Program-made: the position numbers and the translations under genes
Assembly (NCBI GenBank): GCA_030649345.1
Contig: JAUSKK010000002.1
Span: 6,189 to 38,188 of the forward strand
Direction of reading: 5' to 3'
DNA length: 32,000 nt
Source of the DNA: Candidatus Iainarchaeum sp.
GTDB taxonomy: Archaea > Iainarchaeota > Iainarchaeia > Iainarchaeales > 0-14-0-20-34-12
The notes under the pieces: generated by a model
Databases searched by the model: none
Told to the model about the DNA's origin: nothing
What the model saw: the letters and a program-made list of their open reading frames with translations, nothing else
In this document: in pieces, positions 16,027 through 31,932 of the stretch
How the letters are laid out: each line of letters begins with the position of its first letter
Numbering within the stretch: the stretch's first letter is position 1

Positions 16027-16120
16027 GGCTCAGAGTTGATGCCAGCTTGCGATCAAGCGTACCGCATGCATTAAGGTAGTTTACTGCTAACGTTCAACAC
16101 CTCATAAATATGCTAAGACT
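16027..16120. repeat. Partial duplicate (unit 1) of the unit containing the C/D sRNA; same ends, different interior
   Basis: Shares GGCTCAGAGTTGA (13/13), TTCAACAC-TCA-TAAATA (about 16/18) and TAAGACT with 16291-16470, in the same order. Confidence 0.5.
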
Positions 16121-16290
16121 CGGATTTAAGACAATAAAATAAATTGCGAGCAAAGCGAGTACGTGCTGCTGAAGCGAAGCGAAAGCAGCACTATTTTCTT
16201 TTGGGAACTTGCTGCAAAATCCTTGATTTTGCACATATGCAAAATTTTCAATTTTGCAGTATAGCTTTTCTTTTTCTAAAAGAAAAGATA
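16121..16290. repeat. Four-hairpin structured element, copy B (possible non-autonomous mobile element or structured RNA)
   Basis: Hairpins: 16163-16170/16184-16191 (8 bp, loop GAAGCGAAGCGAA); 16213-16221/16225-16233 (9 bp, loop CTT); 16238-16246/16250-16258 (9 bp, loop TTC, extended by ATA/TAT across bulged G16259); 16265-16274/16278-16287 (10 bp, loop TCT). Ends are TTTAAGACAAT and GATA. Confidence 0.65.
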
Positions 16291-16356
16291 GGCTCAGAGT
16301 TGAGTTATTTCATCACCAGCGTTCACGCGTCAGAAGGTGTTAACATCATCATTGCC
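16291..16356 (-). ncRNA. C/D box sRNA (2'-O-methylation guide)
   Basis: Minus strand reads GGC-A-AUGAUGA(C)-UGUUAACACCUU(12 nt)-CUGA(D')-CGCGUGAACGCUG-GUGAUGA(C')-AAUAACUCAACU(12 nt)-CUGA(D)-GCC. All four boxes are consensus, both guides are exactly 12 nt, and there is a GGC/GCC terminal stem. Confidence 0.7.
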
Positions 16357-26226: not shown

Positions 26227-26305
26227 ATAGTAATATACACTATTACTATATTTAACAAAAATAAAACAAAGTGATAAAAAAATGGTTTCAAAATCAAGGA
26301 TTTTG
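26227..26305. repeat. Hairpin cluster in the atpI-atpK spacer (degenerate relative of the four-hairpin element)
   Basis: ATAGTAATA-TACAC-TATTACTAT (26227-26249, 9 bp). CAAAATC-AAG-GATTTTG (26289-26305), whose core AAAATCAAGGATTTT differs at 1 of 15 positions from AAAATCAAAGATTTT in copy A. Confidence 0.35.
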
Positions 26306-26335
26306 GCATAATTGTCAAAAGCTTAATAGATTTTG

Positions 26336-26364
26336 AAAACTTTAAAAAACTGGGAGGTTTTTTA
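26336..26364 (+). promoter_or_regulatory. Conserved SD-containing leader immediately upstream of atpK
   Basis: AAAACTTTAAAAAACTGGGAGGTTTTTTA-ATG is 26/29 identical to the leader of atpB. Confidence 0.5.
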
Positions 26365-26598
26365 ATGGCAGACATCAACACAGGGTTAATTGCAATCGGG
26401 GCAAGTATTGCAATGGCAGCAAGTGCTTTGGCAGCCGCATGGGCTGAAAAAGAAATTGGAACAGCCGCAGTAGGAGCTTTAGCTGAAAAAGAACAATTAT
26501 TCGGAAAAGCACTGATCTTAACAGTTATTCCGGAAACCATTGTAATTTTCGGATTGGTTGTAGCTATCCTAATCATCGGAATGGCTGGAAAGGCTTAA
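26365..26598 (+). CDS. atpK: A-type ATP synthase proteolipid subunit K (c)
   Basis: 77 aa, two TM helices, ion-binding Glu in VIPETIVIFG. Confidence 0.9.
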   Translation: MADINTGLIAIGASIAMAASALAAAWAEKEIGTAAVGALAEKEQLFGKALILTVIPETIVIFGLVVAILIIGMAGKA

Positions 26599-26686
26599 AC
26601 AGTCTGCCGCCAGTCAATTAAGAAAACAAGGAAAACCATGGGTTTAAAATTTGTAACAAATTTTAAAATCCCAGGGGGAATTTTAA

Positions 26687-27247
26687 ATGGGTTTGGAAAA
26701 AGTAATTCAAGAAATCAAAGAACAAACAGAAAATGAATGCAAAAACATTCTAAAACAAGCCAGCGAAACAAGGCAGCACATTATCCAAGAAGCCAATGCC
26801 CAAGCTGAACAATTCAAACAACAAGCCAGCAAAGAATCTGACTTGTTAGCTGAAGAAATTAAAAACAAAGAATTATCTCAGCATCGCTTAGAACAAAACA
26901 AAAAAATTATGGAAACCAAATCCAAAGCAGTTCAAGAAATTTTCCAAACAGCATTGGAAAAAACAAAAACTTTAAGTGAAAATCAACGAAAACAATTATT
27001 GAAAAAATTACTGGAAAAAGGCTTGAAAGAATTGGAAAACGCAAAGTATGTGTACACCAATAAACAAGATACAAAATTAGTGCAGGAATTAGCCAAACAA
27101 TTAAAACATGCAGGCGAAATTCAGTGCACTTCAGGAATTGTTTTAGAAAACGCAGACAAAACAATCAAAGTCAATTATACATTTGAAGTTTTGTTTGAAA
27201 AAACCAAAGAGGAGAATTTACATGAAATTTCAAATGATGCGTTTTAA
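26687..27247 (+). CDS. atpE: A-type ATP synthase subunit E
   Basis: 186 aa. N-terminal long charged helix plus C-terminal globular domain (GIVLENADKTIKVNYTFE). Correct position in the operon. Confidence 0.85.
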   Translation: MGLEKVIQEIKEQTENECKNILKQASETRQHIIQEANAQAEQFKQQASKESDLLAEEIKNKELSQHRLEQNKKIMETKSKAVQEIFQTALEKTKTLSENQRKQLLKKLLEKGLKELENAKYVYTNKQDTKLVQELAKQLKHAGEIQCTSGIVLENADKTIKVNYTFEVLFEKTKEENLHEISNDAF

Positions 27248-28585: not shown

Positions 28586-30328
28586 ATGAGCGAAGCAACA
28601 ATTTACAGAATTTCAGGACCAGTAGTCATTGCCAAAGGATTGAGTGCCAAAATGTATGATTTGGTTTTGGTTGGAAAAGAAAAACTTTTAGGAGAAGTCA
28701 TTCAAATTACAGGAGAAACTACCACCATTCAAGTCTATGAAGAAACATCTGGATTAACACCCGGAGAACCCATTGAAAACACACAAGCACCTTTATCGGT
28801 TGAATTGGGTCCAGGAATTTTAACTCAAATTTACGATGGAATCCAAAGACCTTTAGCTGGACTGCAAGAAATTATGGGAGACTTCATTAAACGCGGAGCC
28901 ACAGCTTCAGCCTTGGATCGAAAAAAGAAATGGGAATTCAAAGCAATTGCTAAAAAAGGAGACTCAGTTTCCGGCGGAGATATTCTAGGAACAGTTCAAG
29001 AAACAGTCAACATTGAACACAAAATATTAGTACCACCGAATATTAAAGGAACATTAAAAAATATTCAAAGCGGAAAATTTAATATTGATGAAGTTATTGG
29101 AACTTTAGAAAATGGAACTGAATTAAAACTAGCCCATAAATGGCCAGTCAGACAACAAAGGCCTTACCAGCAAAAATTAGCACCCGACATTCCATTAATC
29201 ACTGGACAAAGAATTATTGACACACTATTTCCAATTGCTAAAGGAGGAACTGCAGCAATTCCAGGACCTTTTGGTTCAGGAAAAACAGTAACTCAAAGTC
29301 AATTAGCTAAATGGAGTGATGCCCAAATTGTAGTCTACATTGGATGCGGTGAAAGAGGCAATGAGATGACTGAAGTATTAACCGAATTTCCTCACTTGCA
29401 AGATGTAAAAACTGGCCGGCCTTTAATGGAACGAACTGTGTTAATTGCAAACACTTCCAATATGCCAGTGGCAGCCAGAGAAGCCAGTGTTTATACAGGA
29501 ATGACGATTGCAGAATATTTTAGAGACCAAGGATTGGATGTCAGCTTAATGGCAGACTCTACAAGCAGATGGGCTGAAGCCATGAGAGAAATTGGTTCAC
29601 GCTTAGAAGAAATGCCAGGAGAAGAAGGATATCCAGCATACTTAGCTTCCAGATTATCTGAATTCTATGAACGAGCCGGCCGAGTAATTTGCATTGGAAA
29701 AGACGCAAAAATGGGAAGTGTTACAGCCATTGGAGCAGTCAGTCCAGCAGGCGGAGACTTCTCTGAACCAGTCACCCAAAATACATTAAAGATTACCAAA
29801 GTTTTCTGGGCATTGGATGCAAAACTAGCACAAAAAAGACACTTCCCAGCCATCAATTGGCTAGAAAGTTATTCTTTGTATTCTGAAAACTTAAAAAACT
29901 GGTTTGCAAAAAATGTCGCCGAAGACTGGCCAGCTCAAAGAACAGAAGCCATGAAAATTTTGCAAAAAGAAGCAGAATTACAAGAAATTGTTCAATTGGT
30001 AGGCAGCGATTCACTGCCAGAAAAAGAACGATTAACTTTAGAAATCGCAAAACTAATCCGAGAAGCTTTCCTGCAGCAAAACGCCTACCATGAAGTGGAT
30101 ACTTATTGTAGTCCCAAAAAACAACACGGAATTATGAAAGCAATTTTAGAATATGCTGAAATGGGAAGAACAGCTTTAGAACAAGGAGCCAGCATTGAAA
30201 GAATTGCCAATATTGAAAGCAAAAACAAATTAGTTAAAATAGCATTTAAAACAGAAAAAGAATTTGAAACAGAAATCAAACAAATCCATCAACAAATGGA
30301 ACAAGAGTTCAAAGAAATTATTACATAA
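28586..30328 (+). CDS. atpA: A-type ATP synthase catalytic subunit A
   Basis: Walker A GPFGSGKT, non-homologous insert region, SRWAEALREI-like [23 protein letters not shown]. Confidence 0.95.
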
Positions 30329-30449
30329 TATTAAACAAGACAATCGAACGAAGTGAAGATTGTCTATCAGGAGGTATCATAAAATCAAAGATTTTATGTA
30401 TATGCAAAACTTAGAGTTTTGCAGTATATCGGAACCTAAGGTTCTGATA
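30329..30449. repeat. Four-hairpin structured element, copy A, inserted between the atpA stop and a duplicated copy of the atpA 3' end
   Basis: Hairpins: 30338-30345/30358-30365 (8 bp, loop GAACGAAGTGAA); 30378-30386/30390-30398 (9 bp, loop AAA); 30403-30411/30415-30423 (9 bp, loop TAG, extended by TATA/TATA across bulged G30424); 30429-30436/30440-30447 (8 bp with one G-T, loop TAA). Ends are TTAAACAAGACAAT and GATA. Confidence 0.65.
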
Positions 30450-30482
30450 ATGGAACAAGAATTTAAAGAAATAATTGCATAA
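30450..30482 (+). repeat. Non-coding duplicate of the last 10 codons plus stop of atpA
   Basis: ATGGAACAAGAATTTAAAGAAATAATTGCATAA versus atpA 30296-30328 ATGGAACAAGAGTTCAAAGAAATTATTACATAA: 29/33 identical. It would encode [10 protein letters not shown] versus [10 protein letters not shown]. Confidence 0.8.
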
Positions 30483-30526
30483 TTTTGAAAGGTGATACAG
30501 AAATGATTTTAAAATTAGGAATTTTA

Positions 30527-30555
30527 AAAACTTTAAAAAACCAGGAGATTTTTTA
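30527..30555 (+). promoter_or_regulatory. Conserved SD-containing leader immediately upstream of atpB
   Basis: AAAACTTTAAAAAACCAGGAGATTTTTTA-ATG is 26/29 identical to the leader of atpK. Confidence 0.5.
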
Positions 30556-31932
30556 ATGAAAGAATACAAAACAATTACTAGAATTGCAGGCCCTTTGGTT
30601 TTCGTAGAAAAAACACACGAAATAGCTTACGGTGAATTGGTTGAAATTGAATTAGAAGATGGTTCGAAAAAAAACGGGCAAGTATTGGACACCAGCAAAG
30701 ATTTAGTAATTGTACAAGTATTCGAAGGAACTCGAAGTATTTCAAAAAAATGCAGTGTAAAATTCACCGGAAAAACAATCAAATTAGGAGTCAGTAAAGA
30801 CTTACTTGGAAGAGTATTTTCTGGTTTAGGAAAGCCTAGAGATAATGGACCAGAAATTATTCCAGAAATGCATTTAGATGTAAACGGAGCAGCCATTAAT
30901 CCGTATTCTAGAGAAAGCCCAAAAGATTTTGTGCAAACAGGAATTAGTTCCATTGATGGATTGAATACTTTAGTCAAAGGACAAAAATTGCCATTATTTT
31001 CAGGAGCAGGATTGCCGCACAACGAAATTGCATTGCAAATTGCAAGACAAGCAAAAATTTCCGACAAAACAGCCATTGTATTTGCAGCCATGGGAATCAC
31101 CAACGAAGAAGCACAGACATTTATTCAAGACTTTGAACAAACCGGAGCATTAGAACGAGCAATTATTTTCTTGAACTTAGCCAATGATCCAGCTATTGAA
31201 AGATTAATTACACCCAGAATGGCTTTAACTGCAGCAGAATATTTAGCATTCGAACACGGCTACGATGTCTTAGTAATTTTAACAGACATGAGTAATTATG
31301 CTGAAAGTTTGCGAGAAATCGGAGCAGCCAGAGAAGAAGTTCCAGGAAGACGAGGATATCCAGGATACATGTATTCTGATTTAGCCAGCATATACGAAAG
31401 AGCAGGAATCATTAAAGGAAAAAAAGGAAGTGTTACACAAATTCCAATTCTAACCATGCCAGGAGACGATATTACACATCCAATTCCAGACTTAACAGGA
31501 TACATTACTGAAGGGCAAATTGTTTTAGGACGAGACTTGCACGCCAAAGGAATTTACGCGCCCATTGACGTATTGCCTTGCTTGAGTAGATTAATGAATC
31601 AAGGAATTGGAAAAGAAAAAACAAGAGAAGACCATAAAGCTGTAGCCAATCAATTGTATGCAGGCTATGCAGAAGGCCGAGCTTTACGAGGTTTAGTTGC
31701 CATTGTTGGAGAAGAAGCCATGAGTGAAAAAGACTTAAAATTTTTAAGATTTGCTGAAGCATTTGAAAACAAATTTGTCACTCAAGGCAGAAACGAAAAT
31801 AGAAGCATTCAACAAACTTTAGACATTGGCTGGCAATTGTTTGCACAACTGCCTAAAACAGAATTAACCAGAATTGAAGACAAATACATTGACAAATATT
31901 TACCCAAAGCAAGTGAAGCAATCGCTAAATAA
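30556..31932 (+). CDS. atpB: A-type ATP synthase subunit B
   Basis: [39 protein letters not shown] block, [17 protein letters not shown]. Confidence 0.95.

What the first reader, a model, noticed from the sequence alone, without database searches (positions are those of the whole stretch)
30329..30449. 121-nt four-hairpin element between the atpA stop and atpB
Immediately after the atpA stop lie four consecutive near-perfect hairpins with 8-13 bp stems. Three have 3-nt loops and one has a 12-nt purine-rich loop, GAACGAAGTGAA. A second copy with the same architecture occurs 14 kb away (16121-16290). The two copies share end motifs: AAGACAAT on the left, and GATA directly after hairpin 4. They also share one sequence-conserved hairpin, ATATGCAAAA-N-TTTTGCAGTATA, with the same bulged G. 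Hairpins 1, 2 and 4 differ in stem sequence but remain fully paired. Conserved structure with changed sequence argues for selection on a folded nucleic acid, RNA or single-stranded DNA. Candidate explanations: (a) a non-autonomous hairpin-ended mobile element, analogous to REP/BIME or to IS200/IS605-derived palindrome-associated elements; (b) an mRNA processing or stability module inside the ATPase operon; (c) an array of inverted-repeat protein-binding sites. I cannot assign it to any named family from memory.
Basis: seen in the sequence. Interest (0 to 1): 0.8.

Follow-up and report, generated by a model that had tools for sequence, protein, structure and literature searches.

The report
Inserted hairpin-array repeat in archaeal operon
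A 113-base string of four DNA hairpins was inserted right after a gene of the ATP-synthase operon of a tiny (DPANN) archaeon, duplicating the gene's tail, and it looks like a so far undescribed archaeal counterpart of the small selfish palindromic repeats known from bacteria and mitochondria.

Summary
Four near-perfect hairpins follow the atpA stop (RNA z = -6.0, DNA z = -8.8). A second copy with the same layout and the same end motifs lies at 16128-16290.

The host is a DPANN archaeon, labelled Candidatus Diapherotrites.
- Copy 1 is flanked by a 41-nt, 85% direct repeat that duplicates the last 10 codons and stop of atpA.
- Copy 2 is flanked by a perfect 13-nt repeat, which is the 3' end of a canonical-looking C/D box sRNA.
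- Relatives have atpA-atpB spacers of 17-50 nt, or overlapping genes, against 227 nt here.
- Hairpin 1 has a conserved loop, GAAC(G/A)AA(G/A)(T/C)GA, on unrelated, fully compensated stems. It recurs at two more non-orthologous sites in two other genomes of the clade. In those genomes, hairpin arrays come and go between orthologous spacers and sit in frame in a prepilin leader.

There is no Rfam family and no transposase, integrase or Nop-domain gene in the window. The exact hairpin-3 motif is absent from 596 Gb of genomes and from JGI metagenomes.

Best reading: a small non-autonomous, insertion-derived palindromic repeat, analogous to REP, RPE or mitochondrial hairpin elements but a member of none. 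It is probably maintained at the DNA level. Its mobilising mechanism is unknown.

The parts
28586..30328 (+). atpA, A-type ATPase catalytic subunit A (580 aa). Its last 33 nt plus 8 nt after the stop form the first flanking repeat.
   Evidence: Pfam ATP-synt_ab, ATP-synt_ab_Xtn and ATP-synt_VA_C. 100% identical to an NCBI protein of a Candidatus Diapherotrites MAG.
30295..30335 (+). Direct repeat DR1. It covers the functional end of atpA ([10 protein letters not shown]) plus 7 nt.
   Evidence: the repeat finder family D17: 41 nt, 85% identical to 30449-30489.
30337..30449 (+). Hairpin-array element, copy 1 (AAGACAAT...GATA).
   Evidence: z = -6.0 as RNA and -8.8 as DNA.
30338..30365 (+). H1: 8-bp stem AGACAATC/GATTGTCT with the conserved purine loop GAACGAAGTGAA.
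   Evidence: Model R2 gives 41.5 bits.
30378..30398 (+). H2: CATAAAATC-aaa-GATTTTATG. Homologous to H2' of copy 2, with 3 compensated pairs.
30399..30428 (+). H3: TATA-TGCAAAACT-tag-AGTTTTGCA-g-TATA. This is the sequence-conserved hairpin with the bulged G.
30429..30447 (+). H4: TCGGAACC-taa-GGTTCTGA, with one G.T wobble on the + strand.
30449..30489 (+). Direct repeat DR2. It is a displaced pseudo-copy of the atpA end ([10 protein letters not shown]). Three of the 4 coding differences from DR1 are synonymous.
   Evidence: read directly from the sequence.
30556..31932 (+). atpB, A-type ATPase subunit B.
16027..16039 (+). Direct repeat DR-A, GGCTCAGAGTTGA.
   Evidence: exact 13-mer, found only at 16027 and 16291.
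16040..16127 (+). An 88-nt stretch between DR-A and the AAGACAAT end of copy 2. Its origin is unexplained. It could be an extra module of the insert or a decayed duplicate of the sRNA body.
   Evidence: Local alignment to the sRNA body is not significant (p about 0.08). No Rfam match.
16128..16290 (+). Hairpin-array element, copy 2 (AAGACAAT...GATA). H1' 16163-16191, H2' 16213-16233, H3' 16235-16263, H4' 16265-16287.
   Evidence: Family D16: 48 nt, 77% identical to copy 1.
16291..16303 (+). Direct repeat DR-B. It is also the last 13 nt of the sRNA on the minus strand.
16291..16356 (-). Candidate archaeal C/D box sRNA, 66 nt: GGCA-ATGATGA-12 nt-CTGA-13 nt-GTGATGA-12 nt-CTGA-GCC.
   Evidence: Sub-threshold Rfam matches to many archaeal C/D families (sR1 E = 0.0013, sR3 E = 0.006). 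The boxes were read from the sequence.
26289..26305 (.). Solitary H2-like hairpin CAAAATC-aag-GATTTTG in the atpI-atpK spacer. It is the exact reverse complement of 17 nt of H2' of copy 2.
   Evidence: This is weak evidence: 14.8 bits, E = 2.4 with model R1.

Best explanation
The element is a small, non-autonomous, insertion-derived palindromic repeat. It is an array of short hairpin modules that was copied into the boundary just after a gene's 3' end.

**What is shown**
- The 113-nt core sits between two copies of the atpA tail.
- A second copy sits between two copies of an sRNA tail.
- Relatives lack the insert.
- Hairpin 1 belongs to a module type that recurs at unrelated sites in several genomes of the same DPANN clade. 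It has a conserved loop, GAAC(G/A)AA(G/A)(T/C)GA, on variable stems.
- In those genomes, hairpin arrays are present or absent between orthologous spacers. They also sit in frame in a prepilin leader that is presumably cleaved off.

**What is inferred**
- The modules are handled as DNA, probably as single-strand hairpins of the purine-loop strand during replication or repair.
- The conserved H1 loop is the recognition determinant for an unidentified trans-acting protein.
- Insertion duplicates a variable length of target (about 5 to 41 nt). This suggests staggered breaks, one-sided homologous invasion or template switching rather than a classical transposase.
- After insertion the stems stay perfectly paired, either by selection or by arm-to-arm templated correction.
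- In the atp operon the element is simply co-transcribed. It places four stable hairpins (about -36 kcal/mol) between atpA and atpB. Any effect on mRNA stability is a by-product.
For: **Insertion signature**
- A 41-nt, 85% direct repeat of the atpA end flanks copy 1 (D17).
- An exact 13-nt repeat flanks the copy 2 region and abuts its GATA end.
- The atpA-atpB spacer is 227 nt here. In relatives it is 50, 36 and 17 nt, or the genes overlap.

**Family**
- The end motifs and H2-H3 are shared between the copies.
- H1-type hairpins also occur at L021 12226-12253 and at L023 8590-8620(-) (E = 2e-4).
- Across window copies 1 and 2 and L021, 7 of 8 H1 stem pairs are compensated.

**Turnover in relatives**
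- The prepilin leader ranges from 1-2 aa up to about 100 aa. Empty sites were verified in DNA.
- A GC-rich 170-nt array sits inside the loop of a stop-codon hairpin that is intact in orthologues.
- A 42-nt, 86% copy of a leader module lies in an intergenic array.
- The L023 spacer that carries an H1-type hairpin is 194 nt, against 97-127 nt in orthologues.

**DNA-level rather than RNA-level**
- All 11 variable stem pairs change on both sides and none on one side.
- Only 2 wobble pairs occur in about 80 pairs.
- The purine-loop strand is sense to neighbouring genes at two loci and antisense at two.
- Both wobbles lie on the purine-loop strand. That strand also folds 6-8 kcal/mol better in both window copies.

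**Maintenance (inference)**
- The flanking repeats have diverged 15%, yet the 38 stem pairs of copy 1 have no mismatch. About 5 substitutions would be expected under neutrality.

**Negative results**
- No known RNA family matches.
- Every ORF scanned in the window is housekeeping or has no Pfam match.
Against: - Only two full copies are known. The exact hairpin-3 motif gave only chance hits in GTDB representative genomes and JGI metagenomes. Copy number in the source genome is unknown.
- No mobilising enzyme was found.
- The flanking repeats differ greatly in length (13 and 41 nt). An unexplained 88 nt lies between DR-A and copy 2.
- The link between the AT-rich window copies and the GC-rich arrays of relatives rests mainly on the H1 module.
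- The H4-DR2 junction of copy 1 and the left half of copy 2 rest on one assembly only. Contigs from an independent assembly stop inside both elements.
Confidence: 0.55

Rival explanations
1. It is a functional RNA module. The hairpin array would be an mRNA stability or processing element between atpA and atpB, or an independently transcribed small RNA. The conserved H1 loop would bind a protein, and the stems would be kept by selection on RNA folding.
For: - It folds strongly as RNA: z = -6.0 and -4.5.
- Stem changes are compensatory.
- A conserved loop on variable stems is typical of protein-bound RNA hairpins.
- Both wobble pairs (copy 1 H4 and L023 8590) are G.U on the purine-loop strand. 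That strand folds better in both copies.
- Copy 1 is sense to the operon.
Against: - It is not conserved in the operon of relatives, whose spacers are 17-50 nt.
- Copy 2 and the L023 instance are antisense to their neighbouring genes.
- G.U pairs are almost absent and no stem change is one-sided.
- It does not explain the flanking duplications.
- No Rfam family matches.
Confidence: 0.2
2. It is a recombination scar. The duplicated gene tails would be attL/attR-like remnants of integrative elements. Alternatively, they would mark the joint left when a foreign allele carrying the hairpins replaced the gene's 3' end. That second pattern matches the C-terminal duplications seen next to mobile ORFs in fungal mitochondria. 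Under this reading the hairpins are leftover arm or binding sites, not a mobile unit.
For: - The direct repeats are exactly the 3' ends of the target genes. This is the classical signature of integration into gene ends.
- Three of the 4 coding differences between DR1 and DR2 are synonymous (p about 0.05, inference). This hints that both tails evolved as coding sequence in different lineages.
- Partial C-terminal duplications of atp6 and cob next to mobile ORFs are documented in mitochondria (PMC6279837).
Against: - Only 113 nt lie between the repeats, with no integrase or ORF remnant.
- Two different targets carry homologous inserts with the same ends, and one site-specific integrase would not do that.
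- No virus or phage record matches either duplicated tail pattern, and the whole copy 2 locus has no match among phage records.
- The same module type occurs in relatives without long flanking repeats.
Confidence: 0.15
3. It is an array of inverted-repeat operator sites for a dimeric DNA-binding protein, with TGCAAAAT half-sites.
For: Copy 2 has four TGCAAAAT/ATTTTGCA half-sites in alternating orientation, with 25-nt centre-to-centre spacing.
Against: - In copy 1 both half-sites of H2 are changed symmetrically to CATAAAAT/ATTTTATG.
- The stems of H1 and H4 are unrelated between the copies.
- TGCAAAA is a common heptamer in this AT-rich window, with 33 occurrences.
- The site lies inside an operon with no regulator gene nearby.
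Confidence: 0.05
4. It is an assembly artefact, in which the metagenome assembler mis-joined sequence at palindromes or concatenated strain variants.
For: Two contigs from an independent assembly of the same run end exactly at hairpin apexes. L008 ends at 30391, in H2 of copy 1. L026 starts at 16246, in H3' of copy 2.
Against: - Those contigs match the window exactly up to their ends. They confirm DR1-H1-H2 and H3'-H4'-DR-B-sRNA.
- The flanking repeats are diverged (85%) and the two copies are only 77% alike, so neither is an overlap artefact.
- Similar arrays occur in several independent assemblies of relatives.
Confidence: 0.05

Closest known systems
REP/BIME (REPIN) elements of bacteria, mobilised by RAYT (Y1 HUH) transposases
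   Same: Both are short extragenic palindromes that form hairpins. Both are often clustered in arrays just after stop codons inside operons, are co-transcribed, and act at the DNA level.
   Different: REPs keep a conserved stem sequence and a GTAG-type foot, and they occur in hundreds of copies alongside a RAYT gene. Here the stems are unrelated between copies, and only the H1 loop and H3 are conserved. Long flanking duplications are present. No RAYT or Y1 gene is seen, and the host is an archaeon.
Rickettsia palindromic elements (RPE)
   Same: Both are palindromic repeats that insert in intergenic DNA and in frame into protein-coding genes at tolerated positions. The counterpart here is the prepilin-leader arrays in relatives.
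   Different: RPEs are 100-150-nt units with family-wide sequence conservation. Here the units are 20-30-nt hairpin modules that are combined in varying ways. There is no sequence similarity to RPEs.
Mitochondrial repetitive hairpin-forming elements: yeast GC clusters, Allomyces double-hairpin elements, sponge RHEs (PMC2800124, PMC4478555)
   Same: Both are single, double or triple hairpins scattered in the spacers of a compact AT-rich genome. Both are sometimes in frame in genes, are not removed from transcripts, and differ between close relatives. In both cases the transposition mechanism is unknown.
   Different: Those elements are organellar. No conserved-loop module like H1 is described for them, and they do not show a 13-41-nt duplication of gene ends.
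IS200/IS605-derived palindrome-associated transposable elements (PATEs)
   Same: Both are non-autonomous, have hairpins near their ends, and suggest strand-specific single-strand DNA handling.
   Different: PATEs insert 3' of a fixed tetra- or pentanucleotide and make no target duplication. Here the left flanks differ (…TTAAAC versus …GGATTT) and the flanking repeats are 13 and 41 nt.
Stem-loop TIGR arrays of TIGR-Tas systems (preprint 10.64898/2026.09.09.750476)
   Same: Both are arrays of hairpins whose stems differ within an array. Both can lie in frame inside coding sequence, and both are found in ultra-small, host-dependent prokaryotes.
   Different: TIGR units enclose about 36 nt (box C, two spacers, a 9-nt loop, box D) and sit next to a Nop-domain tas gene. 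Here the loops are 3 or 12-13 nt, lack C/D boxes, and no tas gene is nearby.
Integration into gene 3' ends (att duplication) and C-terminal duplications next to mobile ORFs in mitochondria (PMC6279837)
   Same: In both cases the insert is bracketed by two copies of the target gene's 3' end. The upstream copy completes the gene and the downstream copy is a displaced pseudo-end.
   Different: There is no integrase or endonuclease ORF, only 113 nt of hairpins. Two unrelated targets carry homologous inserts.

Membership tests
REP/BIME-REPIN | Copies share a conserved imperfect-palindrome sequence with a conserved 5' foot such as GTAG. | tested here: not met
   The stems of H1, H2 and H4 differ between copies. 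Only the H1 loop and H3 are conserved, and there is no GTAG foot.
REP/BIME-REPIN | Tens to hundreds of copies per genome. | not testable with these tools
   Only 32 kb of the source genome is available. It holds two full copies plus one solitary H2-like hairpin. Collection scans found no further exact matches.
REP/BIME-REPIN | An associated RAYT (Y1 HUH) transposase gene. | tested here: inconclusive
   None appears among the window ORFs scanned or in the gene tables of about 200 kb from relatives. The rest of the genome was not seen.
IS200/IS605-derived PATE | Insertion 3' of a fixed short target sequence, with no target-site duplication. | tested here: not met
   The left flanks differ, and flanking direct repeats of 41 and 13 nt are present.
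Classical MITE | Terminal inverted repeats and a target-site duplication of fixed length. | tested here: not met
   The ends AAGACAAT... and ...GATA are not inverted repeats of each other. The flanking repeats are 13 and 41 nt.
Stem-loop TIGR array (TIGR-Tas) | [quoted passage not shown] | tested here: not met
   The loops are 3 nt (H2-H4) or 12-13 nt (H1) and carry no C/D boxes.
Stem-loop TIGR array (TIGR-Tas) | An adjacent tas gene with a Nop domain. | tested here: not met
   The neighbours are atpA/atpB, and an ABC-transporter binding protein and a methyltransferase. No scanned window ORF has a Nop domain.
Integrated element (att scar) | Direct repeats equal to the 3' end of the target gene. 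| tested here: met
   The 41-nt atpA tail and the 13-nt sRNA tail.
Integrated element (att scar) | An integrase gene or its remnant between the repeats, or a free element carrying the matching attP. | tested here: not met
   There are 113 nt (copy 1) or 251 nt (copy 2) between the repeats and no ORF remnant. Viral contigs have 0 matches to either tail, and the whole copy 2 locus has no match among phage records.
Diversity-generating retroelement (TR/VR pair) | Repeat differences confined to adenines of the template repeat, and a reverse transcriptase gene nearby. | tested here: not met
   Only 2 of 6 (or 3 of 6 in the other direction) DR1/DR2 differences fall on adenines, as read. No RT gene is in the window.
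Any Rfam RNA family | A match at the family's gathering score. | tested here: not met
   There are 0 matches in the window at gathering thresholds. Only noise appears at E up to 5-10 over both copies.
Repetitive hairpin-forming elements (descriptive class: RHE, RPE, GC clusters) | Dispersed hairpin-forming repeats with presence/absence differences between relatives, tolerated in frame in genes. | tested here: met
   This is a descriptive class, not a homology family.

The most novel reading that the evidence does not exclude
The H1-type hairpin, with its conserved GAAC-GAA-RYGAA loop on a free-varying stem, is the recognition element of a so far unknown archaeal mobilisation or recombination system. 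That system would copy short hairpin modules into gene ends as single-strand DNA and duplicate a variable length of the target. This would be a new mechanistic class of prokaryotic mobile DNA specific to DPANN archaea. Less likely, the arrays are a new kind of guide-RNA or protein-sponge array.
Probability: 0.15. Interest if true: 0.8.

Novelty: new variant of a known kind. Interest (0 to 1): 0.55.

Why it matters
Small palindromic repeats (REP, RPE, mitochondrial hairpin elements) shape operon expression and genome plasticity, and they have led to new enzymology such as the RAYTs. I know of no description of them for DPANN archaea. The papers that mention Diapherotrites or Iainarchaeum together with hairpins or repeats did not describe any.

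This case has several unusual features.
- It is a modular family with a conserved loop and free stems.
- It duplicates gene tails on insertion.
- In relatives it fills the prepilin leader in frame, in a part of the protein that is presumably removed.

If it is confirmed genome-wide, three things would follow.
- It would give a marker for strain typing of these uncultured organisms.
- It would explain why assemblies of the same sample break at these sites.
- It would point to an unidentified protein that recognises the loop.

Tried and rejected
- **Known RNA families.** Rfam at gathering thresholds on the whole window, and at permissive E-values on both copies, gave nothing except the neighbouring C/D sRNA candidate. 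No tRNA or tmRNA was found.
- **More copies by exact motif.** The hairpin-3 pattern was searched in GTDB representative genomes, JGI metagenomes and IMG/VR. It gave 7, 6 and 0 hits. All lacked neighbouring hairpins and lie in unrelated taxa, so they are chance matches.
- **Covariance model of H2-H3 (R1).** It found only the two window copies and weak noise in about 204 kb.
- **DGR template/variable repeat.** The DR1/DR2 differences are not adenine-specific and there is no RT.
- **TIGR stem-loop array.** The loops are too short, there are no C/D boxes and there is no tas gene.
- **attP on viruses.** Degenerate and exact searches for the two duplicated tails in viral contigs, and blastn of the copy 2 locus against phage records, found nothing.
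- **Small ORF.** A 29-41-codon frame runs from H2 into DR2. It has no credible ribosome-binding-site spacing and is out of frame with atpA, so it was dropped.
- **Longer shared module upstream of atpK and atpB.** Beyond the 53-nt repeat the alignment is unconvincing.
- **The 88 nt left of copy 2 as a decayed sRNA duplicate.** The alignment has p about 0.08, which is not significant.
- **Flanks of the source contig.** The first window gene and atpB are not on record, so no extra sequence of the source genome could be fetched.
Full report
**1. What is in the sequence**

The window comes from a low-GC (about 34%) DPANN archaeon.
- The atpA product is 100% identical to a protein of a Candidatus Diapherotrites MAG. 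The next relative is only 75% identical.
- Deoxyhypusine synthase and an A-type ATPase operon fit an archaeon.

Four hairpins follow directly after the atpA stop (30326-30328).
- H1, 30338-30365: 8 bp, loop GAACGAAGTGAA.
- H2, 30378-30398: 9 bp.
- H3, 30399-30428: 9 bp, a bulged G, then 4 bp.
- H4, 30429-30447: 8 bp with one G.T wobble.
- The stretch folds far better than shuffles: z = -6.0 as RNA and -8.8 as DNA.

The second copy is real.
- It runs from 16128 to 16290 and has the same order of hairpins.
- It has the same left end, AAGACAAT. That octamer occurs three times in the window, and two of these are the element ends.
- It has the same right end, GATA, and the same H3. The H3 motif has 2 matches against 0.00 expected.

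In an 80-nt sliding MFE scan, the only structure outliers clearly beyond z = -3 in the window are these two loci.

**2.

*Flanking repeat at copy 1.* Copy 1 is bracketed by a 41-nt direct repeat at 85% identity, 30295-30335 and 30449-30489 (D17).
- The first copy is the functional end of atpA ([10 protein letters not shown]).
- The second is a displaced pseudo-end ([10 protein letters not shown]).
- Three of the four coding differences are synonymous.
- The inserted unit is therefore 154 nt. Without it the atpA-atpB spacer would be 73 nt.
- Relatives have spacers of 50, 36 and 17 nt, or overlapping genes.

*Flanking repeat at copy 2.* The GATA end of copy 2 abuts an exact 13-mer, GGCTCAGAGTTGA (16291-16303). 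The same 13-mer recurs at 16027-16039.
- On the minus strand this 13-mer is the 3' end of a canonical-looking archaeal C/D box sRNA.
- That sRNA is 16356-16291: C box ATGATGA, 12 nt, D' CTGA, C' GTGATGA, 12 nt, D CTGA, with a GGC/GCC terminal stem.
- It has sub-threshold Rfam matches to many archaeal C/D families.
- Both copies therefore sit at a gene's 3' boundary between two copies of that gene's tail.
- An 88-nt stretch (16040-16127) between the left repeat and AAGACAAT remains unexplained. Its similarity to the sRNA body is not significant.

**3. Covariation and what it means**

- H2 differs between the copies at three pairs and H3 at one. All four changes are two-sided.
- H1 was compared across three sequences (window copies 1 and 2, and L021). 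Seven of 8 pairs change on both sides and 100% of cells pair. No shuffle reached this.
- No pair changes on one side only.
- Among about 80 stem pairs only two wobbles occur: H4 of copy 1 and the L023 hairpin. Both are on the purine-loop strand.
- That strand also folds 6-8 kcal/mol better than its complement in both window copies.

The flanking repeats have diverged 15%. Under neutrality about five substitutions would be expected in the 76 stem nucleotides of copy 1 (inference), yet none breaks a pair. Pairing is therefore maintained.

The near absence of G.U pairs and of one-sided changes argues for DNA-level palindromy rather than an RNA function. So does the orientation: sense to neighbouring genes at two loci and antisense at two. 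Arm-to-arm templated correction could produce the same pattern without selection, so 'covariation' here is not proof of a functional fold.

**4. Evidence from other genomes**

The exact hairpin-3 motif is absent from GTDB representative genomes, JGI metagenomes and IMG/VR, apart from chance hits. A scan for hairpins with a GAA-rich loop nevertheless found further H1-type hairpins.
- One lies in a relative with 74% atpA identity: L021 12226-12253, GTGCTATT-GAACGAAACGAA-AATAGCAC. Its stem resembles H1' of copy 2, with two compensated pairs.
- A covariance model of H1 then found a fourth instance: L023 8590-8620(-), GCATGACT-GAACAAAGTGA-AGTCGTGC, at 23.8 bits and E = 2e-4. It lies in a spacer of 194 nt, against 97-127 nt in orthologous loci.

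The L021 hairpin lies in frame in the N-terminal leader of a pilin-like protein with a class III signal peptide.
- Seventeen orthologues have a well-conserved mature part. Their leader ranges from 1-2 residues to about 100 residues.
- The short leaders are true empty sites in the DNA, with 9-11-nt spacers to the upstream gene.
- The filled leaders are made of hairpins of differing sequence.
- One leader module recurs at 86% identity over 42 nt in an intergenic GC-rich array, L024 18680-18860, which folds at -88.6 kcal/mol.
- That array sits precisely inside the loop of a stop-codon hairpin, ATGCAG/CTGCAT, which is intact in orthologues.

So this clade carries hairpin modules that are gained and lost at gene ends and at tolerated coding positions.

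**5. Best explanation**

The window element is a non-autonomous, insertion-derived palindromic repeat built of hairpin modules.
- *Shown:* insertion (flanking duplications, empty orthologous sites), family membership (shared ends, H2-H3 homology, recurrence of the H1 module), and maintenance of pairing.
- *Inferred:* handling as single-strand DNA of the purine-loop strand, recognition through the conserved H1 loop by an unknown protein, and an insertion route that duplicates a variable length of target.
- The variable duplication, about 5 to 41 nt, fits staggered breaks, one-sided homologous invasion or template switching better than a classical transposase.
- In the atp operon it is co-transcribed. 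It would place about -36 kcal/mol of hairpins in the mRNA, and any stabilising effect is secondary.
- Confidence is about 0.55.

**6. Rivals**

- *Functional RNA module* (0.2). It fits the fold and the conserved loop. It does not fit the orientation, the lack of G.U pairs, the absence from relatives' operons or the duplications.
- *Recombination or att scar* (0.15). It fits the duplicated gene tails and the excess of synonymous differences (p about 0.05), and it has a precedent in mitochondrial C-terminal duplications (PMC6279837). However, there is no ORF remnant, two unrelated targets carry homologous inserts, and no matching attP was found.
- *Operator array* (0.05). It is contradicted by the symmetric replacement of both H2 half-sites.
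- *Assembly artefact* (0.05). Two contigs from an independent assembly stop at hairpin apexes, at 30391 and 16246. That is odd: by chance about 5e-4 (inference). But they match the window exactly up to that point, and the repeats are diverged.

**7. Comparison with known systems**

The element works like REP/BIME, RPE and mitochondrial hairpin elements (PMC2800124). It fails the defining tests of several families.
- REP: no conserved stem or foot, and no RAYT gene seen.
- IS200/IS605 PATEs: target duplications are present and there is no fixed target.
- MITEs: no terminal inverted repeats, and the duplication length is variable.
- Stem-loop TIGR arrays: the loops are 3 or 12 nt instead of about 36 nt with C/D boxes, and there is no Nop-domain gene.
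- DGRs: the repeat differences are not adenine-specific, and there is no RT.

I therefore file it as a new variant of a known kind, namely small palindromic repeats, in a lineage where I know of no description of one. The papers that mention Diapherotrites or Iainarchaeum together with hairpins or repeats did not describe any.

**8. Limits**

- Only 32 kb of the source genome could be read. Look-ups for flanking genes found nothing more.
- Copy number and the mobilising protein are unknown.
- The link to the GC-rich arrays of relatives rests mainly on the H1 module.

Noticed in passing
window 16291-16356 (-): A canonical-looking archaeal C/D box sRNA of 66 nt. It has C, D', C' and D boxes, two 12-nt guides and a GGC/GCC terminal stem. 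It falls below Rfam gathering scores (best E = 0.0013). Its last 13 nt are duplicated 264 nt away. Its methylation targets were not predicted.
   Followed up: partly
window 26330-26382 and 30521-30573; also 26643-26687: A 53-nt, 81% repeat lies upstream of atpK and atpB. In it the Shine-Dalgarno sequence (GGAGG or GGAG) sits in the loop of an 8-bp A/T hairpin, TTAAAAAA...TTTTTTAA, that ends at the ATG. A similar arrangement precedes atpE. It may be a shared translation-initiation or internal-promoter cassette.
   Followed up: partly
window 30391 and 16246 (ends of Logan contigs L008 and L026): Two contigs from an independent assembly of the same run (SRR13727527) end one or two bases past a hairpin loop, inside copy 1 and copy 2 respectively. 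The cause could be strain heterogeneity, further copies, or loss of coverage at hairpins. It is unexplained.
   Followed up: partly
L021 12195-12659, L023 12190-12657, L024 12190-12705; proteins P0132-P0148: In relatives, a pilin-like gene next to a 729-aa gene and a type IV pilus ATPase operon has a hypervariable leader of 1-2 to about 100 aa. The leader is made of in-frame hairpin modules, while the mature part is conserved. Empty sites are confirmed in L027 (2716) and L028 (10001).
   Followed up: yes
L024 18680-18860: A 170-nt GC-rich hairpin array (-88.6 kcal/mol) in an AT-rich genome. It is inserted in the loop of the stop-codon hairpin ATGCAG/CTGCAT between two convergent genes. It is absent from L023, L027 and L028, and L021 has a shorter version.
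   Followed up: yes
L015 7143-9737 and L024 1-2744: Relatives carry inteins (Intein_splicing plus LAGLIDADG). One is in atpB (864 aa) and one in atpA (1087 aa). The window's atpA and atpB have none.
   Followed up: no
window 26289-26305: A solitary hairpin, CAAAATC-aag-GATTTTG, in the atpI-atpK spacer. It is identical to the reverse complement of 17 nt of H2' of copy 2, that is, the same stem with a flipped loop. It may be a lone module or chance in AT-rich DNA.
   Followed up: partly
window 16040-16127: An 88-nt stretch of higher GC with a GCTTG/CAAGC hairpin, lying between the left 13-nt repeat and copy 2. It has no Rfam match and no significant similarity to the sRNA.
   Followed up: partly
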